From positions 1-64,000 of IMG/VR virus record IMGVR_UViG_3300033146_000244: DNA of 64,000 bases; one strand, written 5' to 3'. The notes beneath the pieces are model-generated. The model did no database searches, was not told the origin of the DNA, and was given only the letters and a program-made list of their open reading frames with translations. Shown one piece after another: positions 13,101-51,251 of the stretch (its first letter is position 1; every line of letters begins with the position of its first letter). The translations under genes were made by a program, and so were the position numbers. The DNA comes from a virus.

Positions 13101-16100
13101 GAGATAGGAAGAGATGGCTACAGAATACAGCAAGAGGAGCCAGCTACAATACACACACAGACAGTAACTGTTACACAAGCTAATAAGTTAGTAACAAGCG
13201 GACTTATGACTATGTTTGGTGATATGAGCCATTGGACTGGTGGTAACTTACGTGGGTTTAAATATAAAGGATTAGACAATCCCACTATAGCAGATTTAGA
13301 TAAGTTAAAACAGGATATAAAAAGTACATTATCCACAAGTGGTACTGTAGATTTAGCAGATAGACTCGGTATGGATATTATATATGATGAAGACGGTGGC
13401 ATAGTTAGTATGCAAATTAAGGATATGTCTAAGTTAGTAGAATTAGTTAAAAAAGAGATGGCAGATGGCTACCCATTATCAGATATAGAAGCAATGAAAC
13501 TAACAGATGATGGTAAAGATATAGTGCTACCAATAGCATTTCAAGGAAACGGTCAAAGGATAGAAGCACTTATAAATTCTGTTATTACTAGTGAAGTAGT
13601 TAAAACTAAAATGCCAGGTAGGTCGTATGTACAAGCAGGTGCTAATGGTGTAACTACTATAGCAGATATGAGTGCAGGTGCATTGAATGATGTTGTAACA
13701 ACTAGTGTATATGACGGTACAGGATTAGCATATGTGAAACCAGGTGAATTTAATAAAGCAACTGGAGAAGTATCTAGTGATACAACTTATGCACAATGCT
13801 TTGTACCTTTTAATATAAAAGCACCAGATGGAACACTCTATAAGATAGAGGACTTTGTAGATGAGGTAGATGGTAAGAAAGTACTTAACAGAGATAGATT
13901 ACCTGATGAACTGCTTAAGCTAATAGGATTACGTATTCCTAATCAAGGACATAGTAGTATGTTAATACTAGAGATAGCTGGGTTCTTACCAAGTTACATG
14001 CACGACAGTATTATAGTACCACCAGAGATTACAGCGCAGCAGGGTTCAGATTTTGACTTTGACCACTTGTACGCATATAGTTATAATACTACTAACAAGC
14101 TAGTAGATATAGCTAGCGTTAGAAATGAATGGAGGAGGCTTGTTGAAAATGAGGAGCATCTTGATATGCTCACTGATGATGAATATAACGAATATATAGA
14201 CAAAGTAGAAAGATTAGAAGAACTGGAAGATAAGGTTAAGAGGTTACGTACTTCAATAGAAGTACTATATAACAATACCGCAGAGTATAAACAATACGTA
14301 GAAGATGTAGATAACTTTTACAATAAGTACTCAGATGGTAATATAGCTATGCTGTTAAGTGAAGAGGTTAATGCTTTCACAGAAGAGGGTAAAAAACTGT
14401 TATCAGAGCTGATAAGTAATAAAGAGTTATATGCCTTTGACAAACTTACGTTAGACGAAGTAGAAGCTGCATACGGTAAAGAGTACGTTATAGTACGTGA
14501 TGTTTTAAAAGACTACTCAACTGAATGGAGAAAATTACATAACGATAAAGCAGAAGAAACTAGATTATCTGCATACAAAGAACTATTATCAAAAGAAAAG
14601 CAAGCTAACTACGATGCTATAAAAGAAGAGCTAGATGAACAGATAAGTTCTCTTAGCGATGTAATTGAATATAGAGATAATATAGAAAGTAAGTTACGTG
14701 GGCAGTATATGGCAGGTACTTATTCAAATGGCAAGAACGTCAAATTAGCTAAGGTAGAACACGATGTAACAGACTTAAAGAATCAGACGAAAGAACAACT
14801 GCAGAATGCTTACGTAGATGTGTTTCATAGCATACTAAGTCACCCTTACGTAGCAGAGAAGATGCTAATGCAGCTAGACTTACCGTATCTAAAGAGAGAA
14901 GCAGATAAGATGCAAGAAGTACTACATAGTAAGTTAGCAGGTAAAGACTCTTTTAATCCTATGGGTAGTGCATTTGCATTAGATATGTATAGAGCAAACC
15001 AAGCAGGTAAAATGGGTGTAGCGATAGAGAGTGTTGCATCTACATTCTTTGCTATGGTAGAGAATTATACGTTACCAATACATGATACCATAAAGGGTGG
15101 CAAAACGTCAATCAGGTTTGGTACAGACAGTAACTTGAAATCACTGGATAGGATAGGTTTAGGGTACTATGTTAATGATAAAGGTATTCGTATAACTAAT
15201 GCAGATGTAATAGCGATGTTACAAAATGAAGCAGTGGATAATGCTAATAACTTAAATTTAGCACCTATAAACTACACTAGCGATACAGCAGCTATGTACA
15301 ACATGTTAGCAATGCTTACTAATGATACTGGACAATGTTTATCAATAGAGTATCTTGTGAGGTTTATGAACCAAGAGATAGTAAGAGAGTATATAGAAGC
15401 ACTATCAGAGAAGAAGAGTACGGTAGCTGAGTTTGAAGAAGGTGGTGCAGAAGCAGTTGTTGAAAGATTGCGAGATAAGTATCGTAAGCGTGGTAAGATA
15501 GAAAAGGATGCTGTTATAGATACTATAGACTATGATGAAGCTAGTATGTTATCAATGTTAGAACAGTATGCAGATGGTTCAAATAGTAAGAGTTACATAG
15601 AAGCGCAACTCCAGATACTAGATGACTTTGTAGAACTAACAGAAAACTATGTTAATCCAGCTAACCTAGTAATATCTGCTCTAAATGGTATAGATACTAA
15701 AGGACTAGGTAAAGATATGTTTGAGGTAATAGCAAAAGATGCTAAGATAAAAGAGTATGTACTTAAGAGTAAAGTATTGCCAGGTATAGCTAAGGTGCTA
15801 AACAGTGATACAGAGATGGGAACACTATATAAAAATAGTATAACGTTAGCTAGTAAGCTGTACAATCAAGCATTTGACAAAGCCCCTATATTACCATACA
15901 ATACTCTTGTAGTTAAAAATGTGTTTGAGGAAGTTGGAATGGCTGTAGATAAGGAAATGCTATCAGCTGATGACTTAAGAGATACGTGGCGTAACTTAAA
16001 AAGTTTTATCATAAGTAAGAACTACGCAGAGAGTTTTGTAGGTTATGATATAGAAGCAGAGAGAAAACGGTTACTTATAGGTGATGCTAAGAATCCTTCA

Positions 16101-18305
16101 TTTGCAGAACAGGTTAGAAACTTAAGAGGGTATGAGTGGTTTAAAGGTAATAGATTTTTAGTAGATGGTGTAAATGAATTACACGCTAACGATAAAGGGG
16201 GTAAAGACAGGGAGATGTACCCTATAATAAGTAATGGTAAAAAGAAACTTATAAAAGAGACTGTACAATATAAATCAAATCATGTTAATCCAATAGGAGT
16301 TGAGTATTATGTAGGTAGTAAAGCTAGAAATGATGACTATAAGAATACAGCTGCAATACTAACGTTAATACAAGAAGCAACAGCAGAAAAAGCTATGCTA
16401 GCTGAGTCGTATGATAGCGAAGGGGTAACTACCTATAGTCTTAGAGATATACGTGATATAAATAACAAGTATAGATTTGTACAAGATTTAGTATCGTATG
16501 CTATCCTCACTAATGGCATACAAGGTGCACGTAACTGGGTTAAGTACATACCAGTACCTTATTTAGAAGCACTTGGGTATAACAGGTCTATAAGGAATAT
16601 CAACTTTAATAATATACAAAATTTCAACGATAAGTATAATACAGACACTTTCGTTAGACAGTACTATCAACATAACCCTAAGAAAGCTAAAACATTTAAA
16701 GAAGTAGTAACTAATGATAAAAACAGTAAGTATAGGACAGTAGTAACATTAGCTATACCAGGCAGTGAAAATAATATAAATGACAACTTAGTAACAGGTA
16801 ACGAACAAAAGGGATTTAAGTACCCTAAATATATAAAGAGATATAATCTTAGTGCTAATAGCTATGAGCTATATGAACGTAAGGGTGCAGACAGGTTTAT
16901 TAGAATAGATGTACTTGAGATAGAAAATAATGCAGGTATAAAACAGTATAATCCAGATGTAGCGGTAGTAAGTAGCTTAGCTCATAAGGATAGGGTATCA
17001 AAAAGTCAATTCACTGATGCGCTATCTGAAAATAGATTTACACGTAAAGCAGAAGAAGCTAGATTAAATAAGGTATCAAGGCTATATAATGAAAGACCTT
17101 TCATTACTGGGCAAGGTAACAAGATGCAGTTGAAAGAATATATAGATATAAGAGCTAAGAGCGATATGGCTTATAATGGTGTAGCTAAAATGATAAGTAA
17201 ACTATGGGACACGCTAGGAGATTTTGAACTTACAATAGGTAAAGAACAAGCTATAGGTATGACAACATTTCTAGATAATGGTAGGTTAAAAAGTTTAGAT
17301 ATAAACCTAGCACAGTTTAATACAGTTAAGCAAAAGAAAGCAGCTGGTAAACAAGTAAAAGAAGCAGATGAAGTATTACACCATGAGTTACTACATGGGA
17401 TACTCTATAAGCATATTAGGCAGTATGAGAACGGTGTATTAAAAGAAGGTAAGATATTTGATACTATAGATGGCATTAAGAAGTTGATGGATACATTAAG
17501 AGAAGAGAAAGGACAAGAGTACCTAGACTTTGAATCTAAAGCATTTGCTAATACTGTAAAGAAATCATCTGATGTAGATGCTATGGGAGGTTTACTGGAT
17601 ATACATGAGTTCTATAGCTATGGACTCACTAACAGAGTATTCCAAGAATATCTAAACTCAGTTAAAAGAACTGATGGCAAGAAGGGTACTATGCTGGAGC
17701 AGTTTATTGATATGGTAGTAGAACTAACTAGAGATATAGCAACTTCATTAGGAATACGCATTAAAGAAGATAGTGCTTTACGACAGTTGATAGAAAGTAG
17801 TATTGAATTGACTAGTTACATAGAAGGTGCGGAAGATGCGGAAGATGTTACAGAGAATAACAATGCAGTAGATACTGATATAGTCAAAGGAAAGGTGCTT
17901 ACTGATAAGTTTGCTGATACAGCAGTATCACAAGCGAAGTCGCTAGCTGAGTTACTTAATGACCCAGACAGAACACAACAACGTAGTGATACAGACTACA
18001 TAGGTGGTAAACAGCGTGCCTTATCTACTAAAACAGCTACAGACATACTGCAAGAAAACAATATGCTATATGAAGATGGTACTATAAGACGTATGACTTT
18101 AAAGGATAGTAACTACAGGAAGCTATCAGATATAGCTAATAAAATAAACAGTGGTACAGATACCAGTGTAGCAAATGTAGTAAAGACAAAAAAAGGTAAG
18201 TATTATAGATACACTGTAGAGATTACAGATAACAGTATAGATGCCGATATACTATTGAATACAGCTATGCTTGACAAAAGTAGTATAGCTGATAGTGACT
18301 GTTAG
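4170..18305 (+). CDS. Virion RNA polymerase polyprotein (crAss-type) with C-terminal zincin-like domain
   Basis: 4711 aa. RIPNQGHSS followed by GSDFDFD (DFDFD at 14049-14063). HELLH at 17382-17396 with downstream HEFYSYGLTN. Gly/Ala-rich hydrophobic helices near the N-terminus. Confidence 0.9.
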   Translation: MPEDTKKPIPVKTDGKKEVAGYKPMSFKEYKEDSDKQARRRGALTTARQTVGNTLHRDINIDEYAKYMPIKGVVGDLEKSQLNDMRARGQSTLEQVGRTLNPVNRGKSIGLGLIKDLGYIMELPEIISGKSDFTNGLIEWAEKTKDKTVGKVYMENNGKVFDMANPAWYLTHGADLYDSMSEFLLLGAGIGSTVAKGTSLTIKGLNLVGNAAKIAKFSGNVLSSAALTYFDAANTATSAYKQTYSRLTSEINPRTGKLFTAEEAGQYAGDAAYSGFGTQLVVGTILNAPSIAPFFKTASSIKNKTAAEMLKAVKGETRAARIARLKELTLENEAVKKGLQKNARDGLAHKLPHEMAQEYFEEIGATWSEESGVDLGMYNAMGGNKKWYAGFAAIDRLGKVFFSAEGQLSGMLGIAGGAGQTIGMHYLTPGSLGYKRDKTGAIVYDDNDKPISVEKNTASYRRSWGFNGSKQRLFTEYDAFNAQRINVIKDLEYINATTEQIERLSGKTDKANLAQAEVLQDKLFSLSTAESLFNNRGENLIELYEQIGALDNKKLDEDGDTEAMRAGVTVQPDTKLYTSDHTSRASKLISDIKELNDEHSRVLERYDTEENNLYGVQKLLTQIAVASKRSEQTYNEARSKTAKAYKGASSKLSLQAKYEALKEHIAELKKESTLDKQIADNVQPEDLKLVAKDYITLEKQRHTTDDIINERLESYDAYIKVKEAELAKLNKQLVETTKESTEGATEILGLEETAPMVEASISEYMHDMNRQLNKKTLQYATKRSTVKKIRDNGQRIHDKAERSRRARKKKEDIVKNRAKTTEANKDTKSTNDNISAKERAFKEAEADKKAIELAEREQREAEEAIREEQEGAVIKNPEGVKTPPSVNVNVEAAVSDESRTDVVNIVSEEAEAIFKEVSADKGKYKKNYNTIKKVIAALLAKKAPLKSLLGNAVNADNYDKISVLDIPADSPEGDYKAKYIDYLKWKTAVEVNNAKEASKKANEEGESIEELQNRLVEVINDAIGTNKQKLLAVDMLANIGKFVELVQIASKLHAKTVGIELNVYTKEDLAIIYNMAVRLAKLEGSAKVRFHAQYTKAVASMATFEPVESNINAKAVEALTDNLGLDGKYKSISTGETTLKPYNDEAISTSEEVAAEVIADNSTETKLWAKVYNVFASIAYKIQASKEMVNRERGNTYHVNTETVKNLAAIDTLYTGDSVSINIDTEYDGDVMMPDGTMRSWSIVKDELSIVAIVKADDTSYIGNIPLVITNSDGKVVGHIRTTAWLDKRRGNLQEGIDADKEIEKLISLRRGILAKGGAKTTITKIGTGVINRQHEGKRTTVTKAITNKAIKIIVGSNKNFVHKKGSTVSITNSRWFSKFGFNGGTALHIPMANGEYHAIPVANQTLGTSGHNSTIVALIQLYVSGDKKAISEYSKKIQVDIAKKGTLEKLIKMFIYTESFNSDTMEAENAKNGKDRRTQSMFGITKEGNIRFANIRDVVGGKNSLYEITRNGNVLVDGRPSKEVSLDKALNILEGYLINRRMNTSLEHLGKDSAIAIPVIEDGKLSSKKYTSYSEFLKNHLETDMVERIGEDKDGNVKFSYTIQQTTEFSTELEGIGEETDLEGDDDTIWNNFVDTGKLPRTKIEEIANKIINGSTLSEKELSMRTTYAKDIEIILEQTKSNEEVDKVVSAAETGKVDKTTKEVVIDSKQLREDVTNAIKRQQARKLQNGDIAILRANKDLVATIKKELGVGSKRTKRASRVKKAMAVASYEKITDTIKVAVDSLTIKGLTPIQQASMVDALIATMTRHIEGDWNRESVSIELEELYKDYVGNANVLNALLEERNEDTLFEESELDVIWDMDAQQISEFYARRSASTKTLKTWQAHYNLLSQEDVFKDVMTKVFEGLAARKIKIVMTESSQVEDAEDGGNDMTDEEKIVNKWEIQSASVDTLLRTSAKFKSLLASVPNYKYVMEDGKVKLVDGDPVFEETLNFMGEILPKDDVELKKILTEFLHKHATDKPGEKFDNMIRSMKSTDNPAYVYHFAQMLENAEDADKSALVGIMSVQKTNASILVWKKNKVTYDYANKRKLPENEQYYEFGMYLRDSSKPQEYDTLKNNWLNGQGTAMLDNKLIVADETGALIVKGSRVVWWSKLYNEGVKTYKTRYPDSKEDYAMSAEDFRMLLNEIGINYSKVDLENLMNIEHDAVLLQQFNASLSESQRIEKYSDMFKRGGMVDYMIRQMSSHEKSMYLEESNPIGNITSGTITALATAQINSIGGFGTSTYVNGEGNTEQSYSMNTMLGHRVAVLSKTEKGADGSVIISEELESLLDPSMDMTGTYVEDGIEKHKSYWGKLMKEGLGSKFSTGKSDSVKKGGAGNKGVSRTKATMFELIIDQIARFTKNGHDTAEFMPLAFSDKATQPTITAPKISGIVDNAFLMSDNKNVPVLTDEYREHVWNYMIKPEIDRINNHANRVHKGSITEYSVGGQYFTGGFLFQFSPYLNNASVMKGVDGIRTEIGGIDMSNPATKEVLTDIVSKVIEKAALDKATKMREAGMLVKEKTYSTLPLLNKDGKHVRGKTIRQETGTKWVLRFVDKSYLKNMPEEYTNPQKLAALALDFEFNNTMATVEYVKNIGGDAANVYATKGLEIKVDGKKERFVATDYVGEGKDNFRMVLDKYGHLLETQLKKQWGSYVKRLASNIAPGTDLMWRDSFGRKFDKSLQAYIKDPKLARYNKLYKEIFNLDGYDSTEGGDALNYSTLRESIIVQHGSTKITDASYIATMDEYDRVDDINLALVAKHTDNGKIDVETVLEAILEEWTSINLKDKVFTELKDAVRVAPLKPVIVNHEVRKDEGRTATKYVKIATLPLVEGLTKNTRLDYLRKMMELRELLSKDKETGSIKAVNVTYTSGVKFGAQRVGSIFQEHTEDSIAKLSKNLKKGSDVVDEHGNIVKVGSPVVDENGNPIEDIQGINALHFEEIGRDGYRIQQEEPATIHTQTVTVTQANKLVTSGLMTMFGDMSHWTGGNLRGFKYKGLDNPTIADLDKLKQDIKSTLSTSGTVDLADRLGMDIIYDEDGGIVSMQIKDMSKLVELVKKEMADGYPLSDIEAMKLTDDGKDIVLPIAFQGNGQRIEALINSVITSEVVKTKMPGRSYVQAGANGVTTIADMSAGALNDVVTTSVYDGTGLAYVKPGEFNKATGEVSSDTTYAQCFVPFNIKAPDGTLYKIEDFVDEVDGKKVLNRDRLPDELLKLIGLRIPNQGHSSMLILEIAGFLPSYMHDSIIVPPEITAQQGSDFDFDHLYAYSYNTTNKLVDIASVRNEWRRLVENEEHLDMLTDDEYNEYIDKVERLEELEDKVKRLRTSIEVLYNNTAEYKQYVEDVDNFYNKYSDGNIAMLLSEEVNAFTEEGKKLLSELISNKELYAFDKLTLDEVEAAYGKEYVIVRDVLKDYSTEWRKLHNDKAEETRLSAYKELLSKEKQANYDAIKEELDEQISSLSDVIEYRDNIESKLRGQYMAGTYSNGKNVKLAKVEHDVTDLKNQTKEQLQNAYVDVFHSILSHPYVAEKMLMQLDLPYLKREADKMQEVLHSKLAGKDSFNPMGSAFALDMYRANQAGKMGVAIESVASTFFAMVENYTLPIHDTIKGGKTSIRFGTDSNLKSLDRIGLGYYVNDKGIRITNADVIAMLQNEAVDNANNLNLAPINYTSDTAAMYNMLAMLTNDTGQCLSIEYLVRFMNQEIVREYIEALSEKKSTVAEFEEGGAEAVVERLRDKYRKRGKIEKDAVIDTIDYDEASMLSMLEQYADGSNSKSYIEAQLQILDDFVELTENYVNPANLVISALNGIDTKGLGKDMFEVIAKDAKIKEYVLKSKVLPGIAKVLNSDTEMGTLYKNSITLASKLYNQAFDKAPILPYNTLVVKNVFEEVGMAVDKEMLSADDLRDTWRNLKSFIISKNYAESFVGYDIEAERKRLLIGDAKNPSFAEQVRNLRGYEWFKGNRFLVDGVNELHANDKGGKDREMYPIISNGKKKLIKETVQYKSNHVNPIGVEYYVGSKARNDDYKNTAAILTLIQEATAEKAMLAESYDSEGVTTYSLRDIRDINNKYRFVQDLVSYAILTNGIQGARNWVKYIPVPYLEALGYNRSIRNINFNNIQNFNDKYNTDTFVRQYYQHNPKKAKTFKEVVTNDKNSKYRTVVTLAIPGSENNINDNLVTGNEQKGFKYPKYIKRYNLSANSYELYERKGADRFIRIDVLEIENNAGIKQYNPDVAVVSSLAHKDRVSKSQFTDALSENRFTRKAEEARLNKVSRLYNERPFITGQGNKMQLKEYIDIRAKSDMAYNGVAKMISKLWDTLGDFELTIGKEQAIGMTTFLDNGRLKSLDINLAQFNTVKQKKAAGKQVKEADEVLHHELLHGILYKHIRQYENGVLKEGKIFDTIDGIKKLMDTLREEKGQEYLDFESKAFANTVKKSSDVDAMGGLLDIHEFYSYGLTNRVFQEYLNSVKRTDGKKGTMLEQFIDMVVELTRDIATSLGIRIKEDSALRQLIESSIELTSYIEGAEDAEDVTENNNAVDTDIVKGKVLTDKFADTAVSQAKSLAELLNDPDRTQQRSDTDYIGGKQRALSTKTATDILQENNMLYEDGTIRRMTLKDSNYRKLSDIANKINSGTDTSVANVVKTKKGKYYRYTVEITDNSIDADILLNTAMLDKSSIADSDC
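6816..6854 (+). repeat. Dispersed motif copy 1
   Basis: CCCCCCAGTGTAAAT (6816-6830), 13 nt, then CTGCGGTTTCC. In the vRNAP gene, encoding TPPSVN. Confidence 0.85.
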
Positions 18306-18353: not shown

Positions 18354-21300
18354 ATGGGTTGCCCAAACAAACAACACCCTTTGTGGAAGAACATGGTACT
18401 TAAATTAGGAGAAGAATTAGCTTATAAAGTATATAAAGCTAATAGTGAGAAGTTACTATCAGTTAAGGAAGCAGAAGCAGTAGTAAAGAGAAGAGAAGAG
18501 CGTAGTATCAGTGATGAACAACTAGCCCCCAGTGTAAATGAGATTCCATTGACTGCGATTTCACACCCAGAAACTTACCACAGATACAACCTTACAAATA
18601 TAAAGAACGTTCAAAGACGTTTTAAAACAAATAGTGATTTAATAGCTACAATGCTAAACAATCTAAATAGGCTTAGTGGTCTAAAATTCACTAAAAGAGA
18701 AGTAAGTGAAACAGAGTCAGTCATAGATATTAGTAAAATAGAAGTAGCACAACAAGTCAATGTTGAGTATGCACTAGTTACAGAACCTATATTAGAAGAG
18801 GAAGAAGAGGAAGAAGAGGAGACAGAGAAGATAGTAGATACTAGTAAGGAGGCATTTGAGAAACTCGCTTTTACTACACAGCTGGCAATAAAAAAGGTAA
18901 GAGAAGTGAAAGCTGACTTAATAGCAAGGTCTAACAGAGATAATACATCTAAATCAGATATAAGAGATAGGTTAGATAAATTAGGTAGAGATGAAGCTGA
19001 CTTATTTCAGAATGATACGTTTATTACTGCTTTAGGTATAGCATCCGAAGCTATGGACAGATTAGAGATGGAACTTAGTAAGAACGTACAACTATCGGAT
19101 ACAGAGGTATCCTTAATGGGTAGAGAGCTCAGTACTTGGAAAACATTGTTAGATTGGATACAAGATGCAAAAAACAGTGACTATAGTGCTTTACACACTA
19201 AAGCAGTACAAGACAGTACTGAAGTATTACAAGGAAGGTACACTCGCATACACGCTGATATAATGAAGGTAACTGTAGAGAATACAAAGGCAGGGTACAA
19301 ACGAAAGATGCGTAAAGCCCCTAGTAAAGATTTTAGTACAGTTAGCGTAGAGATAAATAAAGCAAAAAGGTTTGCAGCTGATTTATCAAGAAGTGCTGAT
19401 AAGCTAGCACAATATATAGATACACTGCTTAAATCTAAGGATAGAAATACTGGTAATGTTATAGCTAAAATATTCAGTGTTATCAATGCTAAGATGACGG
19501 AAATGACCGATGCAGAAATAGACATAACAAGTAAGGAGTTTCAACGTAAGTACACAAATAGTGCGGGAGATGGGTTGGTAGATGAGTACAGCGAGCACTA
19601 TAGAGAACAGGTTAAAGCTCACGAGCACACTAGAATACGGATTAATAATTTAAAGTATGGTAAACAGCGTACTAAGCAGACAAAGAAGTTTAAAGAGTGG
19701 GAAAAGAATAATCTAATAACAGTAAACGCTTCTAAGGTGACAGGCTATAAAGCAGAAGTAACTGCCGAAGAGAGAGCTACACTAGAGAAGGAGGAACTAG
19801 ATAGACTAACTAGTATGTATGGCGCAGAGAAAGCCAGCCAGATGATAAAAAAAAGTAAAGAGCTGTATAAAGAATACTTAAAAGATAAGAAGATTAAGAT
19901 AGCTAGAATAGAAGAAGATGCTGAGGTTCATACAGAAGAAGGTAAACTACTAGAGGGTGATGCCAAGAAACAGTACATATATAATAGAACAAATTATTTT
20001 ATACGTGCTAATAACCCCTTATACTTAAATGAGTATCTCAGTGATAAGAAAAGTAACAGCTTTGTACATACAGGAGTATATAGCGTACAAGAGCCTATGC
20101 ACTATGAGAGTAATGACATACACTACGATAAGAGATTTAAGGAACTACAAAGTGATGAAGCAGCTATGGAGTTCTTAGATTGGTATAAAGCCACACTAGA
20201 TGCTTTAATTAGTAAGTTACCACAGAATATAGTAGATAAACTTGATAGTGCTTTCTTACCAGATGTGACTAAGAAGTTATCAGAAAAGTTGGTAGAAAAA
20301 GGGTTTAACGCTAAAGGTATATCAGATAGGATTATAGATTTGTTAAAGAGTGGAGAGTTTACTGAATTAGCTTTAGAGAGCATCACTGCTGATGGAGACC
20401 AATCATCATTCTTTGACAGTGCTAATAGGAAACAAAGACGTGTATTAGTGGCTAACCATAGAAACAAAGCTAAAGAGATTGGTATAGAGATAACCAAGTT
20501 AGAAGATGCTATAGAATTAAACACAGCTAAAGCAGCAGCTAAAACTAGAGAACTTGACAAATATATCAAATATGGCTTTGAGAATGACCCTGATGCCCTT
20601 GTGGCACGTGCAGAGTTAAATGTAATAAATAAGAAGATAGCGGAGGATACTGCTAAAATAGAGCCTTTAAAAGTAAAGAAAGATAAAGTAAAAGAAAATA
20701 AAAGTACTGACTTGTTTGGTATATTAAAAGCATTTGCTGTTATGGCTATATCGTATGAACAGAGTGCTGAAGTAGAAGATAGTGTATTACTAGCTAAGAG
20801 GGTAATGGACAATATAACACAGTATAAAGACCATAAAGGAGATTTGATAGAAGATGCTGACGGAGCAAAGAATATAAAAGCATTAGCTGAGTATACTATC
20901 AATAGTAGCTTATATGGCGAAACAAGGGTAGATAGAAAGACTACTAATATAGATGTAGTACTTAGCAAAGACGATAGAGTAGTTGCTAAAGCTGTAAAGA
21001 AGATAAAAATACAAGCATACGAAGATGAGGCTAATGGTATAATAACATCAAAGGAACGTCATAAAATAGTAGTAGAGCAGGACGCTAGGTACGAAGCACT
21101 TAATAAAGCTAAGTTAAGTTGGAGTAAAGTACTAGATTGGGTGTTAGCTTACACACAGTTAAAAGGATTAGGTTATAATCCCATATCGTCTTCTGTGAAC
21201 CTAGTATATGGGTTAATAATGAATCAGATGTATGCAGCATCACAGACAGATACGACACATAAGGATATGATGTGGGCATTTAAGATAATGTGGGGTGCAG

Positions 21301-22415
21301 CATTCGGTCAAGCTACCGGAAAGAAGATAGGAGAAGCTAAAAAGATAGATAATCTTATAAATAAGACAAACATATTATTTGAGGTGAATGAAGCTGCTTA
21401 TGGAACTAAGAACAGTATAAGTGATAAGCTAAAAAAGTTAGGCTTCTTAATACCATTTGAAATGCAGAAACGTGGTGAGTATATCATACAAGGAATGATG
21501 ATGGTAGCATTAATGCGTACTAAAAAAGTTACTATAGGTATTAGTGAAGTATCACTATATGACTGTTATACAGAAGAAGGTGTATGGGATACGGAGAAGT
21601 ATGGAGCAGAGCCCTCAGAGTGGTCTGATGATATAAGTGCTAAGGATAGTAATGAATATACAAGGTTTAGAGATATGATGATTCAAACTATCAAGAGAGT
21701 GCACGGTAACTACGACCCGACGTCATTCTTAGAGGGTAAATCTACATCTATCGGTAGAATGGCATTTCAATATAAGAGTTGGGTACCAGAGGGTGTATTA
21801 ACTAGATTTGAGGATGCGCATGATGAAGAACAAATGGGTAGAGTAGTGAAGGGTAGATATGTTACTTATAAGGATATAAAACTAAAGAATGCCTTTAGTA
21901 TAATGCTTAATCCTATGTACCTCTTAGGATTAAAGAAGGTTGAACTTAATGGGTTCGGTAATATAAAGAGTGAGGTAGATTTGCAGAACATGAGATATAA
22001 CATAGCAGAAGCTCGTTGGATAATGGTAGCAATAACTGTTAATTTACTAGCAGCATTAGCATACGCAGTTGGAGATGATGACGATGATGAAGTACGTGGT
22101 ATAAAATCAATGATTAACACAATGGGTAGATTACAGAGTGACCTTACATTTTATATGAACCCACTAACTATAGTAGATATAGCTAAAAATCCTTTTCCTG
22201 TGCTACAAACGTTTAGTGATGTACATAAAGCTATAGTAACCATCCGTAAAACAGCTTTTAGTGATAGTGACTATTATAGCACATCGCACTTGCTTAAAAG
22301 TATAGCTAAGCCACTGCCACTCGTTGGCAACATTGCATCTGTGCTTAATTCAGATAGTAGAATATATGCAAATGAACCAGTTAAGATATTTAAGGGCATG
22401 CTAGAAGAGGAGTAA
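18354..22415 (+). CDS. Large ejection/cargo protein
   Basis: 1353 aa, helical/coiled-coil, hydrophobic C-terminal helices. The N-terminus (MGCPN...W...LGE..AY) resembles large virion proteins of crAss-like phages as I recall them. Confidence 0.6.
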   Translation: MGCPNKQHPLWKNMVLKLGEELAYKVYKANSEKLLSVKEAEAVVKRREERSISDEQLAPSVNEIPLTAISHPETYHRYNLTNIKNVQRRFKTNSDLIATMLNNLNRLSGLKFTKREVSETESVIDISKIEVAQQVNVEYALVTEPILEEEEEEEEETEKIVDTSKEAFEKLAFTTQLAIKKVREVKADLIARSNRDNTSKSDIRDRLDKLGRDEADLFQNDTFITALGIASEAMDRLEMELSKNVQLSDTEVSLMGRELSTWKTLLDWIQDAKNSDYSALHTKAVQDSTEVLQGRYTRIHADIMKVTVENTKAGYKRKMRKAPSKDFSTVSVEINKAKRFAADLSRSADKLAQYIDTLLKSKDRNTGNVIAKIFSVINAKMTEMTDAEIDITSKEFQRKYTNSAGDGLVDEYSEHYREQVKAHEHTRIRINNLKYGKQRTKQTKKFKEWEKNNLITVNASKVTGYKAEVTAEERATLEKEELDRLTSMYGAEKASQMIKKSKELYKEYLKDKKIKIARIEEDAEVHTEEGKLLEGDAKKQYIYNRTNYFIRANNPLYLNEYLSDKKSNSFVHTGVYSVQEPMHYESNDIHYDKRFKELQSDEAAMEFLDWYKATLDALISKLPQNIVDKLDSAFLPDVTKKLSEKLVEKGFNAKGISDRIIDLLKSGEFTELALESITADGDQSSFFDSANRKQRRVLVANHRNKAKEIGIEITKLEDAIELNTAKAAAKTRELDKYIKYGFENDPDALVARAELNVINKKIAEDTAKIEPLKVKKDKVKENKSTDLFGILKAFAVMAISYEQSAEVEDSVLLAKRVMDNITQYKDHKGDLIEDADGAKNIKALAEYTINSSLYGETRVDRKTTNIDVVLSKDDRVVAKAVKKIKIQAYEDEANGIITSKERHKIVVEQDARYEALNKAKLSWSKVLDWVLAYTQLKGLGYNPISSSVNLVYGLIMNQMYAASQTDTTHKDMMWAFKIMWGAAFGQATGKKIGEAKKIDNLINKTNILFEVNEAAYGTKNSISDKLKKLGFLIPFEMQKRGEYIIQGMMMVALMRTKKVTIGISEVSLYDCYTEEGVWDTEKYGAEPSEWSDDISAKDSNEYTRFRDMMIQTIKRVHGNYDPTSFLEGKSTSIGRMAFQYKSWVPEGVLTRFEDAHDEEQMGRVVKGRYVTYKDIKLKNAFSIMLNPMYLLGLKKVELNGFGNIKSEVDLQNMRYNIAEARWIMVAITVNLLAALAYAVGDDDDDEVRGIKSMINTMGRLQSDLTFYMNPLTIVDIAKNPFPVLQTFSDVHKAIVTIRKTAFSDSDYYSTSHLLKSIAKPLPLVGNIASVLNSDSRIYANEPVKIFKGMLEEE
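18526..18562 (+). repeat. Dispersed motif copy 2
   Basis: CCCCCAGTGTAAAT (18526-18539), 13 nt, then CTGCGATTTC. Encodes APSVN. Confidence 0.85.
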
Positions 22416-46871: not shown

Positions 46872-47912
46872 TTATCTTAAACCAGTGAGCCTATTAAACA
46901 TTGTTTTGTTTATAAGTGCAGCTGGTTTAACTGTTATTCTTTTAGTATAGTAACTTACATTCTTTATCACTTCCACATCATTATTTTGCGTATTGATACC
47001 ATGTAGCACACTCCTATTTTTATAACACTTGTTACTTTGTTCTTTTCGTATATTGTTAGAGTGGTTACTATGTAACCTGTTATGATACATACGTTCTAAC
47101 CTATCATGTTTCTCTATTAACTTAGTCAGTTTATCATCTAAGTAGTCTTGGTAGAACTTAGGTAATGCACGTCTTAATACATTATTAGTTTCTACCCCAG
47201 CACTGCAATCACAGACAAATGTATCGCCTGCATACTTCTTTATCTGTGCTTCTAAATCCTTTATAACCCAATATGCCTTTGTATTACTACTTTTTTTATT
47301 ACCCTTACTAACTAACTCAGATACCTTAGTTGTTATACCATTATTTAGGTAGTATTCATCACGTCGCATATATAAATTTGCTACTTGTAACGCACCACTT
47401 GACGATACATACTCGTTATTCACGTTCTTTCTATTTATACCCCAGTTGGTTATTATGTCTAGTTCTTGTCTGTCTTTAATTACTCTTTTTATTTTATAAA
47501 CCATTTGATTATAGTTTATTTCTTTTTTACTACGTAGCATCTGTCCCATAAATTTGAATGCCTTGTTGAAGTTATTAGTATTACTGTACCATCTATCATA
47601 GCCTACTATCTTTTTGTTCTCCTTATCTACTATTCTATTTAAGTAGTCGTCTTCTCCCGTATGTTCAACTACATACTCATCATCGTATTGCCCAAAGTCT
47701 CCCTCTATTGCAAAAAATTCCTCTGCATTTATTATGTTTCTTTCAATTCTGCTATCGTATTGACAGTCCTTAGTAGAATATATAGGAGTATTACCATAAA
47801 TAGGGTCTAACTCCTGCTCTACTGCTTCTTCAAATCTATCTTCGTAGTTACTTACTACTCTGGTCTCTACTACCCAGTTGTCTTTGTTTATTTTGTTTAT
47901 ATCTATTTTCAT
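46872..47912 (-). CDS. Hypothetical protein
   Basis: Likely start MKIDIN at 47912; the longer call (to 47990) runs through the tRNA-like element. Confidence 0.65.
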   Translation of the reverse strand: MKIDINKINKDNWVVETRVVSNYEDRFEEAVEQELDPIYGNTPIYSTKDCQYDSRIERNIINAEEFFAIEGDFGQYDDEYVVEHTGEDDYLNRIVDKENKKIVGYDRWYSNTNNFNKAFKFMGQMLRSKKEINYNQMVYKIKRVIKDRQELDIITNWGINRKNVNNEYVSSSGALQVANLYMRRDEYYLNNGITTKVSELVSKGNKKSSNTKAYWVIKDLEAQIKKYAGDTFVCDCSAGVETNNVLRRALPKFYQDYLDDKLTKLIEKHDRLERMYHNRLHSNHSNNIRKEQSNKCYKNRSVLHGINTQNNDVEVIKNVSYYTKRITVKPAALINKTMFNRLTGLR

Positions 47913-47944
47913 AATGTTACACCTGTTTAATTGGTTAATAATTG

Positions 47945-48013
47945 CAATACAGGTGGGACTTGAACCCACATAACTACCGTAGTAGTGCACTATCCTATTT
48001 GTGCTACTGTACC
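47945..48013 (-). ncRNA. tRNA-like RNA lacking an anticodon loop (UACG tetraloop instead)
   Basis: GGTACAG-TA-GCAC-AAATAGGATA-GTGC-A-CTAC-TACG-GTAG-TTAT-GTGGG-TTCAAGT-CCCAC-CTGTATT-G. Acceptor, D and T arms are canonical. Confidence 0.8.
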
Positions 48014-48028
48014 ATTGATAATTAGTTA

Positions 48029-48418
48029 TTAATTATCAAGCTCTTTAAGCTGTTTTTCAAGCTCTTCTACTGTTAATCTTTCTCTTGCTTTTTTTCTTGC
48101 ATTATACAACTCTTCTACAAGTTCTGCTCTTCTATCTGCTTTATTTTGTTTTATATCATTCTCCTCTATTAACACCTCTCTGTACTCAACCAGTTCTCTA
48201 ACTACTCCTATTTTAAAGGTAAGTTCTTTTACCTTGCTACTAACTTCTCTTTTTTTAGCAAAGAAGCTACCCGACTCTCCAAAAGTAGCTAACTCTCTTT
48301 CTAAGCCAAGTCCGTAACTTAGTAAGAACCTTGTGGTCATGTTATTTAATTGACTTACATTTAATACTCCTTTTGATGTACTGAATGATACATTCTTTAA
48401 TACTGCTTTCTTAATCAT
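48029..48418 (-). CDS. Coiled-coil hypothetical protein
   Basis: FSTSKGVLNVSQL...LTVEELEKQL; directly downstream of the 722-aa gene. Confidence 0.65.
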   Translation of the reverse strand: MIKKAVLKNVSFSTSKGVLNVSQLNNMTTRFLLSYGLGLERELATFGESGSFFAKKREVSSKVKELTFKIGVVRELVEYREVLIEENDIKQNKADRRAELVEELYNARKKARERLTVEELEKQLKELDN

Positions 48419-48449
48419 TTTTATTTGTTTTTAATGGTTTGTAGTGTTA

Positions 48450-50618
48450 TTAAAATCTAACTCTAAGTAGTCTTGTATGGCTACCTTGTACTTTTATCAC
48501 TACAGAATCTTCTATCGTAGTGTTAAAGCCTATACCTGCTAATGGCTCGTTCACGTCACTTACTGGTATTTGTACCTGTTTTGTAAGTAGTCCTAGTGGT
48601 TTTCTTATTTCCATAAGGTCACTTCTAAGATTCTCTACATGGAAGCCTTTTAATGAGTTCTCTACCTTTACATTGTCTAAAATAAATAAAGCATGTTTGT
48701 TACCTACGCTGTTATCTTCCCAATGATTAGGGGTGTACGATACACATCTAACACCATGAAATTCATTTGTATCTAAATTCCATATTGTTTGTTGCTTGCA
48801 GTCTATAGTACTTTCCAAGTGGTCAATTATTGTAAATTTGTCTCCTTCCTTTATAAATGAAACCACGTCTATTATACTGCCATCACTAACAGCTTTATCG
48901 TATTTATAGTGTCTTATTTCTCCTGATAATTCCAATTCAAATTCAAAACCATTATTGTTATCACGTGTTTTGTAATTATGTACACACATAGTGTACTTAC
49001 CATCATTCATACTATCTACTGTTTTATAAGTAATATTTTCAACGGCTTTATAGTTTACAAAGCTAGGAGTTAGTACATCTACATCTAATAAGCACCCATC
49101 TGATAAAGTAGTACCCTTATGTTCATAACACACCTTCGGTAGATTAGGTCTTACTAAGTGTACATCGTAATCACAGTTGTTCCTACCCTCTCCCCAAGAC
49201 AGAGAACCTCTTATAACTGCTGCAATACTACCACCCAATTCCTTTACTCTTTCCGCTATTGCAGATATGCCAGTAAGGTTGTTTCTAAATGTCCAACTAA
49301 ATTTATTGTCCCAGCTAAACATGTTCTTAGCTGTCGCAACTGTCGGAGCAGTTATTGCCATAAACTTGTTAGCGTGTCTATGTTCTAATAATACTTGCAT
49401 CTGTGTTGTTGTAGGTACTATCTCAGATAGGAAGTCTTCATAACTTATCTCTATAACACCTTTTAAATCTAAGGTCTTACTTACTGCTGTTGGTTTTACC
49501 TTATCAAACAGTGTAATTGTTTTCTTTTTGTTAGATACGTGGTTTATAGCCGATAATGGCAAATCACTCATTGTAGCAATACGTCTTTCTAAGCTATCCA
49601 TTAAACCCTTTTCAGTAATAATCTTCTCAGCTAGCTGTAATTGTTTCTTAGTTACAGGAGCTACTGCATTCATGTAGTTTACAGGGTCTGCTATTTTGTT
49701 GTATTCGCTTACTATATCAGATAACGGGTATTCACCCTCTTCTATCTTCTTTAACGGTACTCCAATACTTTTGTTAGCTAATGTAGCTGTAATAGTATTT
49801 TCTGTAATACCGACTTTCCAACAGTACAGTGTTCTTTGTTCTTTTGTTTTTAATGTATTGTACTGTTTTTTAAGTATTATAAATCTCTCTATGTTTGCTA
49901 TAAACTTATCAGAGTTAATAAGTGACTTTTGATTAATTAAGTCTAGTGCTAACTCTAATGTGTCTATACTAAGCAGTTTAAGTCCTTTCTCAAATACTTG
50001 TACAGTTGATACCTGTACTGAGTTGTATGCAGCCATAGAACCACTTATTATATAAGCGGCGGGTATGTCTAAGTAGAAATGATTATACTCCTTTGTATCA
50101 CCTATCTTAAATAACTTGCTTGTAGGATGTTTCATTATATCCTCCTTCGTATACATTACTATGTTATTTTTTTTACCTACTCTGTAAGCACCTTTAATTT
50201 TCTTATACTGTAGTTCGTTCTTACCTCCTTTCTTTGTTGATGATAGGCTTTTTAGGTAGTCTATATCTTCTACAAACACACCTGATATTGGTAACGTCTT
50301 TATGTACTTATCCATCTTACTTGCTACTTCTCCGTATGTTCCATCTACACCATCTACTTTCCAAATAGTCTCTATTTCGTTATTGCCATTTATGGCTACG
50401 ATGTTACCAAATTGACGTAACGTATGCTTACAAGCCATACAATTATGTTTGGTACTCTCTGGGTCTCTCCAAATTTTATCAGTACCTGTTGGGTATGACC
50501 TTAGATATTTCTTCCATGCCTGTTTTTTATTCATGTCCACTATGTACAAGTTTCCGTACTTAGAGCATAGCTCATTGAATCTTTTATTTACTGCGTCTGC
50601 TAATATTTTAAATTGCAT
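48450..50618 (-). CDS. Large phage protein with HNCxxC motif and YfaP-like C-terminal domain
   Basis: HNCMACK, DPVNY, LSW...DYDVH, LDVD, AVENI, PNHW, GNKH. Confidence 0.6.
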   Translation of the reverse strand: MQFKILADAVNKRFNELCSKYGNLYIVDMNKKQAWKKYLRSYPTGTDKIWRDPESTKHNCMACKHTLRQFGNIVAINGNNEIETIWKVDGVDGTYGEVASKMDKYIKTLPISGVFVEDIDYLKSLSSTKKGGKNELQYKKIKGAYRVGKKNNIVMYTKEDIMKHPTSKLFKIGDTKEYNHFYLDIPAAYIISGSMAAYNSVQVSTVQVFEKGLKLLSIDTLELALDLINQKSLINSDKFIANIERFIILKKQYNTLKTKEQRTLYCWKVGITENTITATLANKSIGVPLKKIEEGEYPLSDIVSEYNKIADPVNYMNAVAPVTKKQLQLAEKIITEKGLMDSLERRIATMSDLPLSAINHVSNKKKTITLFDKVKPTAVSKTLDLKGVIEISYEDFLSEIVPTTTQMQVLLEHRHANKFMAITAPTVATAKNMFSWDNKFSWTFRNNLTGISAIAERVKELGGSIAAVIRGSLSWGEGRNNCDYDVHLVRPNLPKVCYEHKGTTLSDGCLLDVDVLTPSFVNYKAVENITYKTVDSMNDGKYTMCVHNYKTRDNNNGFEFELELSGEIRHYKYDKAVSDGSIIDVVSFIKEGDKFTIIDHLESTIDCKQQTIWNLDTNEFHGVRCVSYTPNHWEDNSVGNKHALFILDNVKVENSLKGFHVENLRSDLMEIRKPLGLLTKQVQIPVSDVNEPLAGIGFNTTIEDSVVIKVQGSHTRLLRVRF

Positions 50619-50891: not shown

Positions 50892-51251
50892 TTAGATGCT
50901 GCCTAGAAACTCTTTATAATCCCTAAGTGCCGTTTTAACTGTCTTTACTGGCACTTCACAACGTCCTAAGTACCTTTTGAGGTCTTTCTTATTCTGTGCG
51001 TACATTGCACCTTTGATTACATAACTTTCTAAGAGGAGAAAGCGTGTATTAACTACTACCGAATCCTCACTCTTTATAGATGTCATCGGCATTATTATCA
51101 GTTGGTGCTTATCAGCGGACTCCTTGATAACAAGAGCTGGTCGTTTCTTCCCATGATACTCTGCAATTACCACATCGCCTCGTTTAAACTCTGTTATAGC
51201 AATGCTGAGGTCGCTATACTGTTTGTTTTTATTTATTAGTTTTTTAGACAT
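50892..51251 (-). CDS. PemK/MazF-like fold protein
   Basis: KRGDVV......KKRPALVI........IIMPMTS. Confidence 0.6.
   Translation of the reverse strand: MSKKLINKNKQYSDLSIAITEFKRGDVVIAEYHGKKRPALVIKESADKHQLIIMPMTSIKSEDSVVVNTRFLLLESYVIKGAMYAQNKKDLKRYLGRCEVPVKTVKTALRDYKEFLGSI

What the first reader, a model, noticed from the sequence alone, without database searches (positions are those of the whole stretch)
47945..48013. tRNA mimic with the anticodon loop replaced by a cUACGg tetraloop
Seen: a 69-nt cloverleaf with a 7-bp acceptor stem (two G-U pairs), U8-A9, a 4-bp D stem with GG in the loop, and a perfect T arm (GTGGG-TTCAAGT-CCCAC). The anticodon arm is only CUAC-UACG-GUAG, and the 3' end reads G-CAA rather than CCA. 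Established: C-UNCG-G is an extra-stable tetraloop, and the D/T elbow is what RNase P and other tRNA-processing enzymes recognise. Inference: intact stems plus a clean tetraloop suggest selection rather than decay. It could be a processing signal in the polycistronic mRNA, 33 nt upstream of the 47912 start. It could also be a decoy for host tRNA-binding defence or stringent-response proteins that offers no anticodon loop to cleave.
Basis: partly seen in the sequence, partly recalled or inferred. Interest (0 to 1): 0.8.

Follow-up and report, generated by a model that had tools for sequence, protein, structure and literature searches.

The report
Anticodon-less tRNA relic in phage tRNA slot
An uncultured hydrothermal-vent phage carries a perfectly folded tRNA-shaped gene whose codon-reading loop is replaced by a closed four-base cap. 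It sits exactly where distantly related phages keep a normal tRNA, so it is a tRNA descendant that can no longer decode, and whether it is kept for another job or is a fresh pseudogene is still open.

Summary
On the minus strand, 48013->47945, lies a 69-nt cloverleaf that scores 43.6 bits on the Rfam tRNA model (cut-off 29). It is the only such hit in the 84.6-kb virus record. ARAGORN does not call it, because the anticodon arm is only a 4-5 bp stem with a UACG tetraloop. Independent contigs from three runs (two samples) show the same short loop, so it is not an assembly error.

New here: the element starts 15 nt after the stop codon of a conserved two-gene module. In 21 of 75 distant relatives a tRNA, mostly a normal tRNA-Gln, starts within 50 nt of that same stop. 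So the element descends from, or replaced, a real tRNA.

Its D-loop (GGAUA, with A20 and U20a), G73 and the loop letters ACG point to a tRNA-Arg ancestor.

No homologue of the element was found anywhere; the phage's best protein relatives are about 36% identical. There is therefore no covariation test.

In simulations of random deletions, a c(UNCG)g cap was rare (0.2% of hairpin-forming deletions). This favours a kept structure over fresh decay, but only modestly.

Most likely it is a non-decoding tRNA-like processing element. A recent pseudogene is the main rival. The scan has noted sealed-anticodon tRNA look-alikes before on other phage DNA, in a different gene context.

The parts
47945..48013 (-). 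69-nt tRNA-shaped element: acceptor 7 bp (2 G.U), D arm, sealed anticodon arm (A)CUAC-UACG-GUAG(U), T arm, discriminator G
   Evidence: Rfam RF00005 43.6 bits. Own tRNA model R1 43.6 bits. The MFE fold is a cloverleaf. ARAGORN calls nothing.
47974..47985 (-). Anticodon-arm remnant CUAC-UACG-GUAG, with a c(UACG)g tetraloop instead of a 7-nt anticodon loop
   Evidence: Read directly from the sequence. No indel in independent contigs. Deletion simulation.
47942..47944 (-). 3' trailer CAA (no encoded CCA)
   Evidence: Sequence.
48014..48028 (-). 15-nt spacer between the stop codon of the upstream ORF and base 1 of the element; U at position -1
   Evidence: Sequence. Relatives have the same tight spacing of 6-43 nt.
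48029..48418 (-). 129-aa ORF (phrog_2018 family), second gene of the conserved module; the tRNA slot lies directly behind it
   Evidence: PHROGs E 3.1e-10. Homologous ORF found in 76 of 80 related loci by an HMM.
48450..50618 (-). 722-aa ORF (phrog_1735 / PF26675), first gene of the conserved module
   Evidence: PHROGs E 3.7e-174. 519 GenBank phage records and 105 IMG/VR stretches hold homologues.
46872..47912 (-). Downstream 346-aa orphan ORF; its ATG lies 32 nt after the element, preceded by AGGUG
   Evidence: ORF list. Only one homologue, at 96% identity, among 5.8 billion proteins. No family match.

Best explanation
The element is a non-decoding descendant of a phage tRNA gene, probably of arginine type. 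It sits in a conserved 'tRNA slot' directly behind a two-gene module (722-aa PF26675 protein plus a ~125-aa protein). The anticodon loop and one stem pair have been replaced by a closed c(UACG)g tetraloop, while the acceptor stem, D arm, T arm and elbow nucleotides are all intact.

Inferred mechanism: it is transcribed with its neighbours as part of the long minus-strand message. Host RNase P then cuts at its 5' end (after U-1), and a 3' tRNase cuts after G73. This separates the module's mRNA from the mRNA of the next gene and releases a ~69-nt RNA that cannot read codons. On this reading the tRNA body is kept for that structural or processing role, and the tetraloop keeps the shortened arm folded.

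Shown: the structure, the slot, and the absence of any anticodon loop.
Inferred: transcription, cleavage, and that the structure is under selection.
For: (1) Structure. 21 of 21 stem pairs are intact, and U8, A14, G18, G19, A21, G53, U54, U55, C56, A58 and C61 are all present. Rfam tRNA scores 43.6 bits despite the missing loop.

(2) Slot.
- 76 of 80 IMG/VR loci that hold a 30-37% identical homologue of the 722-aa gene also hold the small ORF.
- In 21 of 75 of these, a tRNA-model hit starts within 50 nt of that ORF's stop codon, and in 16 within 20 nt. The window element starts 15 nt after the homologous stop.
- The background density of tRNA-model hits in these loci is about 1 per 6 kb.

(3) Not a single-assembly artefact. 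It is identical in contigs of three runs from two samples, while both flanks vary.

(4) The cap is unusual for a random deletion.
- I simulated 5-nt deletions in the anticodon arms of 494 real tRNAs. 42% give a hairpin of 4 bp plus a 4-nt loop.
- Only 0.22% of those hairpins are c(UNCG)g, and about 2.7% are any UNCG, GNRA or CUUG tetraloop.

(5) The two unusual acceptor pairs, G1.U72 and G2.U71, still pair (wobble, not mismatch). Both being wobble occurs in only 2 of 494 real tRNAs. This fits relaxed aminoacylation constraint with the helix kept.

(6) Other phages keep tRNA bodies with abnormal anticodon arms. In the same slot: L130:7570, L151:7990, L166:3931. Elsewhere: L133:10547 (69 nt, 6-bp stem plus triloop), L138:5731, L181:1655, L184:2853.

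(7) Arg ancestry.
- The D-loop carries GGAUA (A20, U20a). 18 of the 24 unique tRNAs with GGATA in my sample of 511 are tRNA-Arg.
- The only prokaryotic-genome matches to its D-arm and T-arm pattern are tRNA-Arg(GCG).
- The D-loop of the tRNA-Arg(ACG) in L076 is 9/10 identical.
- G73 fits the Arg identity set in PMC9976931.
Against: - No homologue of the element was found in IMG/VR, JGI metagenomes, GenBank phages or 185,579 prokaryotic genomes with seven patterns and BLAST. There is therefore no covariation and no proof of selection.
- The slot is usually filled by a canonical decoding tRNA (17 of 21). The ancestral role was decoding, and a deletion derivative needs no new function.
- A single 5-nt deletion (positions 31-35) from an Arg(YCU)-type arm would give exactly this tetraloop. 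6 of 21 such tRNAs in my sample have U36-A37-C38-G39 = UACG.
- The 'rare tetraloop' argument is post hoc.
- Zero variants in 69 nt has no statistical weight at about 0.65% strain divergence.
- The sample used for the Arg inference is partly biased, because some loci were fetched with patterns taken from the element.
- There are no expression or cleavage data.
Confidence: 0.5

Rival explanations
1. It is a recently inactivated tRNA pseudogene. A single deletion of about 5 nt removed the anticodon from a working phage tRNA. The rest still looks perfect only because too little time has passed, and the tetraloop is a coincidence of the letters left behind. It has no function, beyond incidental cleavage by RNase P.
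For: - Relatives carry canonical decoding tRNAs in the same slot.
- 42% of simulated 5-nt deletions give a clean 4-bp/4-nt hairpin.
- UACG is what remains of U36-A37-C38-G39, which 16 of 494 real tRNAs carry, including 6 of 21 Arg(YCU).
- Two terminal G.U pairs look like C-to-U drift in an AT-rich genome.
- No homologue or covariation was found.
- The phage has no other tRNA in the 84.6 kb held.
Against: - A c(UNCG)g cap arises in only 0.22% of hairpin-forming simulated deletions, and by my estimate in about 1-2% even for the most favourable parent class.
- There is not one disruptive change in 21 stem pairs or in the conserved tertiary nucleotides.
- Phage genomes are compact, and the 116-nt gap holds little else.
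- The form is fixed in all strain variants sampled.
- Similar intact-body, abnormal-arm tRNA look-alikes recur in other phages.
Confidence: 0.35
2. It is a working non-decoding tRNA mimic that acts in trans. Either it is a decoy that occupies a host tRNA-targeting defence protein while offering no anticodon loop to cut. Or it is an RNA still charged by the host arginyl-tRNA synthetase (it keeps A20, U20a, C35-G36 and G73) but unable to enter decoding.
For: - It retains the published Arg identity nucleotides A20, C35, G36 and A/G73, plus U20a (sequence; PMC9976931).
- Phage tRNAs are known to counter anticodon nucleases (PMC10264068, PMC11464382, PMC11555353).
- The stable tetraloop, intact elbow and rare cap also fit this reading.
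Against: - The known counter-defence tRNAs are normal decoding tRNAs with altered 7-nt loops; they are replacements, not decoys.
- The weak G1.U72/G2.U71 acceptor end with a 5' GG is the kind of end reported to attract CCACCA tagging and decay (PMC4307339, shown in eukaryotic systems). That argues against a stable abundant RNA.
- The record holds no ArgRS, PTH2 or other tRNA-related gene.
- The neighbouring proteins show no tRNA-related fold or family.
Confidence: 0.1
3. It is an assembly or sequencing artefact, or a phage attachment site copied from a host tRNA.
For: Read depth is low, at 3-7x. tRNA genes are common integration sites (established knowledge).
Against: - Three independently assembled runs from two samples give the same sequence without an indel.
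- No tyrosine or serine recombinase is found in the record.
- Both halves of the cloverleaf are present and pair with each other.
- No prokaryotic genome holds a matching tRNA.
Confidence: 0.03

Closest known systems
Canonical phage-encoded tRNA (Rfam RF00005), specifically the tRNA kept behind the PF26675/phrog_2018 module in related environmental phages
   Same: Same cloverleaf body. Same orientation and position: it starts 6-43 nt after the stop codon of the small ORF. It passes the Rfam tRNA threshold.
   Different: It has no 7-nt anticodon loop and no usable anticodon. ARAGORN does not call it. It has two terminal G.U pairs in the acceptor stem.
tRNA-Arg (ArgRS identity set A20, C35, U/G36, A/G73; PMC9976931)
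   Same: A20-U20a in a GGAUA D-loop, G73, and the letters U-A-C-G where U33-A34-C35-G36 would be.
   Different: The letters sit in a closed tetraloop. Overall sequence identity to any Arg tRNA is only generic (about 55-60%), and charging is untested.
tRNA-like processing signals: plant mitochondrial t-elements, mitochondrial tRNA punctuation, MALAT1 mascRNA
   Same: A tRNA-shaped fold embedded in a longer transcript whose only required activity is to be recognised and cut by RNase P and a 3' tRNase. mascRNA also has an undersized anticodon arm (from my own knowledge).
   Different: Those are eukaryotic or organellar. For this phage element, cleavage has not been shown.
Phage tRNAs that evade tRNA-targeting defences (T5 tRNAs against PARIS and retron effectors; anticodon-loop variants, PMC10264068, PMC11464382, PMC11555353)
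   Same: A phage-encoded tRNA gene whose anticodon region differs from the host's, so that an anticodon nuclease could not cut it.
   Different: Those tRNAs keep a 7-nt loop and still decode; they replace cleaved host tRNAs. This element cannot decode.
Sealed-anticodon tRNA look-alikes noted earlier in this scan on other phage DNA (unchecked AI notes)
   Same: A tRNA body with the anticodon loop closed into a stable tetraloop (GNRA, UUCG or CUUG there, UACG here).
   Different: Those sit behind a PTH2-like gene or beside a phage synthetase and form conserved families. Here there is no PTH2 or ArgRS in the record, and no family members were found.

Membership tests
tRNA (Rfam RF00005) | Score at or above the family's gathering threshold | tested here: met
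   43.6 bits against 29.
tRNA (Rfam RF00005) | Cloverleaf with 7-bp acceptor, D arm with G18 G19, and T arm with GUUCRANYC | tested here: met
   cmscan alignment and MFE fold.
tRNA (functional decoder) | 7-nt anticodon loop with U33 and a three-base anticodon on a 5-bp stem | tested here: not met
   The loop is 4 nt (UACG); the model's 9 central positions are replaced by 4. ARAGORN finds no tRNA.
tRNA-Arg lineage | A20 in the D-loop and A/G73 (PMC9976931) | tested here: met
   D-loop AAAUAGGAUA and discriminator G. GGATA is enriched in Arg: 18 of 24 tRNAs with it.
tRNA-Arg lineage | C35 with U/G36 presented in an anticodon loop; arginine acceptance | not testable with these tools
   The letters ACG are present but inside a tetraloop. 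This needs an in vitro charging assay.
tRNA pseudogene | Loss of a feature required for decoding | tested here: met
   No anticodon loop.
tRNA pseudogene | Signs of neutral decay (broken stems, lost conserved nucleotides, absence of constraint among relatives) | tested here: inconclusive
   No broken pair, but two terminal G.U pairs. No relatives exist to measure constraint.
Viral 3' tRNA-like structure (Tymo_tRNA-like RF00233) | Score at or above the gathering threshold | tested here: not met
   16.8 bits against 40.
tmRNA | tRNA-like domain plus tag reading frame | tested here: not met
   ARAGORN finds no tmRNA, and Rfam at gathering threshold gives only the tRNA hit.
tRNA-like processing signal (t-element / mascRNA type) | Cleavage by RNase P at the 5' end and by a tRNase at the 3' end, within a longer transcript | not testable with these tools
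   The substrate features are intact and it is in sense orientation inside the gene block. No RNA data.
PTH2-linked sealed tRNA mimic cassette (earlier scan notes) | A peptidyl-tRNA-hydrolase-like gene directly upstream | tested here: not met
   PF01981 is absent from the whole record. The upstream ORF belongs to phrog_2018.
Phage attP in a tRNA gene | An integrase in the genome and identity to a host tRNA 3' half | tested here: not met
   No PF00589 or PF00239 match. No matching tRNA in genome contigs. The record is only 85% complete.

The most novel reading that the evidence does not exclude
The element belongs to a wider, undescribed class of phage 'sealed-anticodon' tRNAs that stay recognisable to their synthetase but cannot enter decoding. 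Here it would be arginine-type: A20, U20a, C35-G36 at the tip of a UNCG cap, and G73. Such an RNA would give the phage a charged or chargeable tRNA body for a non-ribosomal purpose, or a nuclease-proof decoy.
Probability: 0.07. Interest if true: 0.85.

Novelty: new variant of a known kind. Interest (0 to 1): 0.45.

Why it matters
Phage tRNA genes are usually explained by codon supply or, more recently, by escape from tRNA-cleaving defences. A tRNA body that is kept after its anticodon is sealed would point to a third use: RNA processing, or a role in trans.

Two things found here can be reused. First, there is a conserved tRNA slot directly behind a widespread two-gene phage module of unknown function. 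Second, that slot and its neighbourhood hold many tRNA look-alikes with abnormal anticodon arms. Together they give a comparative frame in which decay and retention can be told apart once more genomes of this lineage are sampled.

For this single element the evidence does not yet separate a kept structure from a young pseudogene.

Tried and rejected
**Searches for homologues of the element (all negative or unrelated)**
- Exact T-arm plus acceptor 25-mer in viral contigs: none.
- Short-arm pattern: one unrelated tRNA-Asn.
- Family pattern with acceptor bases: none.
- Anticodon-arm plus T-arm pattern: none.
- Arg-type sealed pattern: one normal tRNA-Arg and two chance hits.
- Metagenome contigs, strict pattern: none.
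- Metagenome contigs, relaxed pattern: 120 stretches, all ordinary tRNAs or unrelated short-arm tRNA-likes.
- BLAST against GenBank phages: only generic T-arm matches.
- Genome contigs: two archaeal tRNA-Arg(GCG).

**Searches for close relatives of the phage**
- DNA search around the site in GenBank phages: none.
- Single-protein scans of IMG/VR with both module proteins: none.
- The 346-aa neighbour has one homologue, at 96% identity on a 1.3-kb contig.

**Expression**
- No RNA holder was listed among the sequencing runs, so nothing can be said on expression.

**Promoters**
- A sigma-70-like site lies at 48060-48032, just upstream of the element, but such sites occur at chance frequency here.
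- The Bacteroidota-type TAnnTTTG motif is not enriched (86 found against 74 +/- 8 expected), and none lies near the element.

**Function of the neighbours**
- Pfam, NCBIfam, PHROGs, PDB sequence search and the ESM Atlas gave nothing tRNA-related.
- An AlphaFold model of the 722-aa protein (pLDDT 76.6) matched only a TerD-like beta-sandwich, weakly.

**Parent isotype by overall similarity**
- The best matches are only about 60% identical and of mixed isotype: Ile, Trp, Asn, Lys.
- The slot's usual tRNA-Gln is not the closest. The Arg inference rests on the D-loop signature, not on overall identity.

**Literature**
- Three full-text searches found no description of an anticodon-less phage tRNA look-alike.

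Full report
**What is there**

On the minus strand of the window, from 48013 to 47945, lies a 69-nt sequence that folds as a textbook cloverleaf. Its parts are:
- acceptor stem GGUACAG/CUGUAUU, 7 bp, the first two pairs being G.U;
- U8-A9;
- D stem GCAC/GUGC with the 10-nt loop AAAUAGGAUA;
- an anticodon arm reduced to CUAC-UACG-GUAG, extended by an A-U pair to 5 bp in the minimum-free-energy fold;
- a 3-4 nt variable region;
- T arm GUGGG-UUCAAGU-CCCAC;
- discriminator G, followed by CAA.

The Rfam tRNA model scores it 43.6 bits against a threshold of 29. The alignment shows 4 bases where 9 model positions belong. It is the only tRNA-model hit in the whole 84,568-base IMG/VR virus record. ARAGORN calls no tRNA in the window. 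The spacer to the next start codon (ATG at 47912) is 32 nt.

**Is the short loop real?**

The stretch is held by four runs of one hydrothermal-vent metagenome study. Independently assembled contigs of run X1 (47812-48365) and run X3 (47884-48034, another sample) span the element with no difference and no gap. X2 covers all but its first base. Both flanking genes carry strain variants: 47817, 47835 and 47880 on one side, and 48070, 48079 and 48132 on the other. So the four-base loop is not a slip of one assembly. Depth is low, the runs come from one study, and zero variants in 69 nt is not significant at about 0.65% divergence.

**Context**

The record is a phage. It has a family A DNA polymerase, a ribonucleotide reductase, an endolysin-like gene and a 4711-aa ORF. 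Genes from about 55.9 kb down to 22.9 kb all run on the minus strand, and the element is in sense orientation among them.
- Upstream, ending 15 nt before base 1, is a 129-aa ORF (phrog_2018). It is preceded by a 722-aa ORF (phrog_1735, PF26675).
- Downstream is a 346-aa orphan with a single known homologue.
- The record holds no integrase, resolvase, PTH2 or ArgRS.

**No relatives of the element**

The phage is a lone lineage. The closest homologue of the 722-aa protein among 5.8 billion proteins is 36% identical, and there is no DNA match in GenBank phages. Seven pattern scans of IMG/VR, JGI metagenomes and 185,579 prokaryotic genomes, plus BLAST, found no homologue of the element.

**The new finding: a conserved tRNA slot**

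I aligned 25 homologues of the 722-aa protein and fetched 80 IMG/VR loci that encode one.
- 76 of the 80 also encode the small ORF (HMM built from 17 sequences).
- ARAGORN and a covariance model built here (R1) show that in 21 of 75 loci a tRNA-model hit starts within 50 nt of the small ORF's stop codon, and in 16 within 20 nt.
- The 21 occupants are: 13 canonical tRNA-Gln (12 UUG, 1 CUG), one Met, one Lys, two Gly, one Arg(ACG), three Gln-like genes with a 6-nt loop (two of these, L151 and L187, are the same phage), and one Gln-like body with a broken anticodon arm.
- About a dozen more loci carry a tRNA between the two module genes.
- The background is roughly one tRNA-model hit per 6 kb, so this linkage is far from chance.

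The window element, 15 nt behind the homologous stop codon, occupies this slot. It is therefore a descendant or replacement of a real tRNA gene, not a chance fold or an independent invention. Cultured phages with the module (Cellulophaga phi17:2, Serratia phiMAM1, Alteromonas AD45-P1) have no tRNA there, so the slot is a feature of a subset of environmental phages.

**Which tRNA was it?**

Overall identity to any tRNA in hand is generic, at about 60% or less, and of mixed isotype. Specific marks point to arginine:
- The D-loop carries G18-G19-A20-U20a-A21.
- The only prokaryotic matches to the element's D-stem, 10-nt D-loop and T-arm pattern are tRNA-Arg(GCG) genes.
- A metagenomic tRNA-Arg(ACG) (L076) has the D-loop AGAUAGGAUA, 9 of 10 identical.
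- The discriminator is G. A20, C35, U/G36 and A/G73, with U20a in some systems, are the published Arg identity set (PMC9976931).

The tetraloop UACG can be read in two ways. It may be U33 plus the anticodon ACG, which needs two deletions. Or it may be U36-A37-C38-G39 of an Arg(UCU/CCU)-type arm after one 5-nt deletion; 6 of 21 such tRNAs in my sample have exactly those letters. Part of the tRNA sample was fetched with patterns derived from the element, so I hold Arg ancestry at about two in three.

**Decay or retention?**

For a kept structure:
- I simulated every 5-nt deletion in the anticodon arm of 494 real tRNAs. 42% give a clean hairpin of 4 bp plus a 4-nt loop. Only 0.22% of those are c(UNCG)g, and about 2.7% are any UNCG, GNRA or CUUG tetraloop.
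- All 21 stem pairs and the conserved tertiary nucleotides are intact.
- The two odd acceptor pairs are wobble pairs, not mismatches. That combination is seen in 2 of 494 real tRNAs.
- The form is fixed in the sampled population.
- Intact tRNA bodies with abnormal anticodon arms recur in the same slot and elsewhere in related loci. One example is L133:10547-10615, also 69 nt, with a 6-bp stem and a triloop.

For a young pseudogene:
- The slot normally holds a decoding tRNA.
- One deletion is enough to produce this form.
- The tetraloop argument is post hoc.
- Detection by a tRNA model is itself biased towards intact bodies.
- There is no comparative or expression evidence at all.

**Mechanism I consider most likely (confidence 0.5)**

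The element is transcribed within the minus-strand message. Because acceptor stem, T arm and elbow are intact, RNase P cuts before G1 (a U precedes it) and a 3' tRNase cuts after G73, since no CCA is encoded. This ends the module's mRNA 15 nt after its stop codon. It starts the next gene's mRNA 32 nt before its ATG, just ahead of an AGGUG. The released RNA cannot decode. Its weak G.U-G.U acceptor end with a 5' GG is the kind of end reported, in eukaryotic systems, to attract CCACCA tagging and decay (PMC4307339). That fits a cis processing role better than a stable trans-acting RNA. Only the structure and the position are shown; transcription and cleavage are inferred from established tRNA-processing rules.

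**Rivals**

- A functionless recent pseudogene: 0.35.
- A trans-acting decoy, or a still-chargeable Arg-type mimic: 0.10.
- An artefact or an attachment site: 0.03.

**Comparison with what is known**

- It passes the tRNA family threshold but fails the defining decoder feature, so it should not be filed as a tRNA gene.
- It is not a tymovirus-type tRNA-like structure (16.8 bits against 40), nor a tmRNA.
- It works most like tRNA-shaped processing signals (t-elements, mascRNA), which are eukaryotic or organellar.
- Known counter-defence phage tRNAs keep a 7-nt loop and decode (PMC10264068, PMC11464382, PMC11555353).
- Three literature searches found no described anticodon-less phage tRNA look-alike.
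- Earlier notes of this scan report sealed-anticodon look-alikes on other phage DNA, mostly behind a PTH2-like gene. That context is absent here, and those notes are leads, not evidence.

**Verdict**

This is a real tRNA-derived, non-decoding element in a conserved tRNA slot. As a single instance without relatives it is a new variant of a known kind, and I score its interest at 0.45. The slot, and the abundance of abnormal tRNA look-alikes around it, are the more reusable results.

Noticed in passing
window 48029-50618 (-); loci L124-L203: A two-gene phage module, a 722-aa PF26675/phrog_1735 protein plus a ~125-aa phrog_2018 protein, is found in 519 GenBank phage records. In 21 of 75 environmental relatives a tRNA gene starts within 50 nt of the small ORF's stop codon, mostly tRNA-Gln(UUG) 6-11 nt after it. 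About a dozen more loci have a tRNA between the two genes. The reason for this tight linkage is unknown.
   Followed up: yes
L133:10547-10615 (+): Another 69-nt tRNA-shaped gene (47.6 bits on model R1, not called by ARAGORN) whose anticodon arm is a 6-bp stem with a UAU triloop. It lies in a 129-kb IMG/VR phage that also carries normal tRNAs.
   Followed up: partly
L130:7074 and 7570, L132:5869, L138:5731, L147:7284, L148:7505, L151:7990/8138/8534, L166:3931, L179:4385/4876/8589, L181:1655, L184:1900/2853/3017: About a fifth of the tRNA-model hits in these phage loci have abnormal anticodon loops: 6-nt, 8-nt or 12-18-nt loops, or sealed hairpins, on otherwise good tRNA bodies. Three of them are Gln-like genes in the slot itself.
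   Followed up: partly
window 48450-50618 (-): The AlphaFold model of the 722-aa module protein (mean pLDDT 76.6) has a C-terminal beta-sandwich that weakly resembles TerD tellurite-resistance proteins (Foldseek E about 1e-3). The N-terminal part matched nothing. In Alteromonas phage AD45-P1 the gene follows a MoxR-like ATPase gene.
   Followed up: partly
window 50892-51251 (-): A 119-aa ORF with a weak PemK/MazF-like match (Pfam E 3.6e-4, 21.2 bits, below the 23.1 cut-off). It is flanked by ~270-nt non-coding gaps, about 3 kb upstream of the element.
   Followed up: partly
window 4170-18305 (+): A single open reading frame of 4711 aa, followed by a 1353-aa ORF (18354-22415). Not examined.
   Followed up: no
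window 48032-48060 (-): A sigma-70-like promoter match (TTGAAA-17-GATAAT, 10 of 12) ends about 19 nt before base 1 of the element. Such matches occur at chance frequency in this AT-rich region (19 found, 21 expected).
   Followed up: partly
L076 around 701 (metagenome contig Ga0190286_1000184): A normal tRNA-Arg(ACG) whose 10-nt D-loop AGAUAGGAUA differs from the element's by one base. It is the closest D-loop match seen.
   Followed up: no
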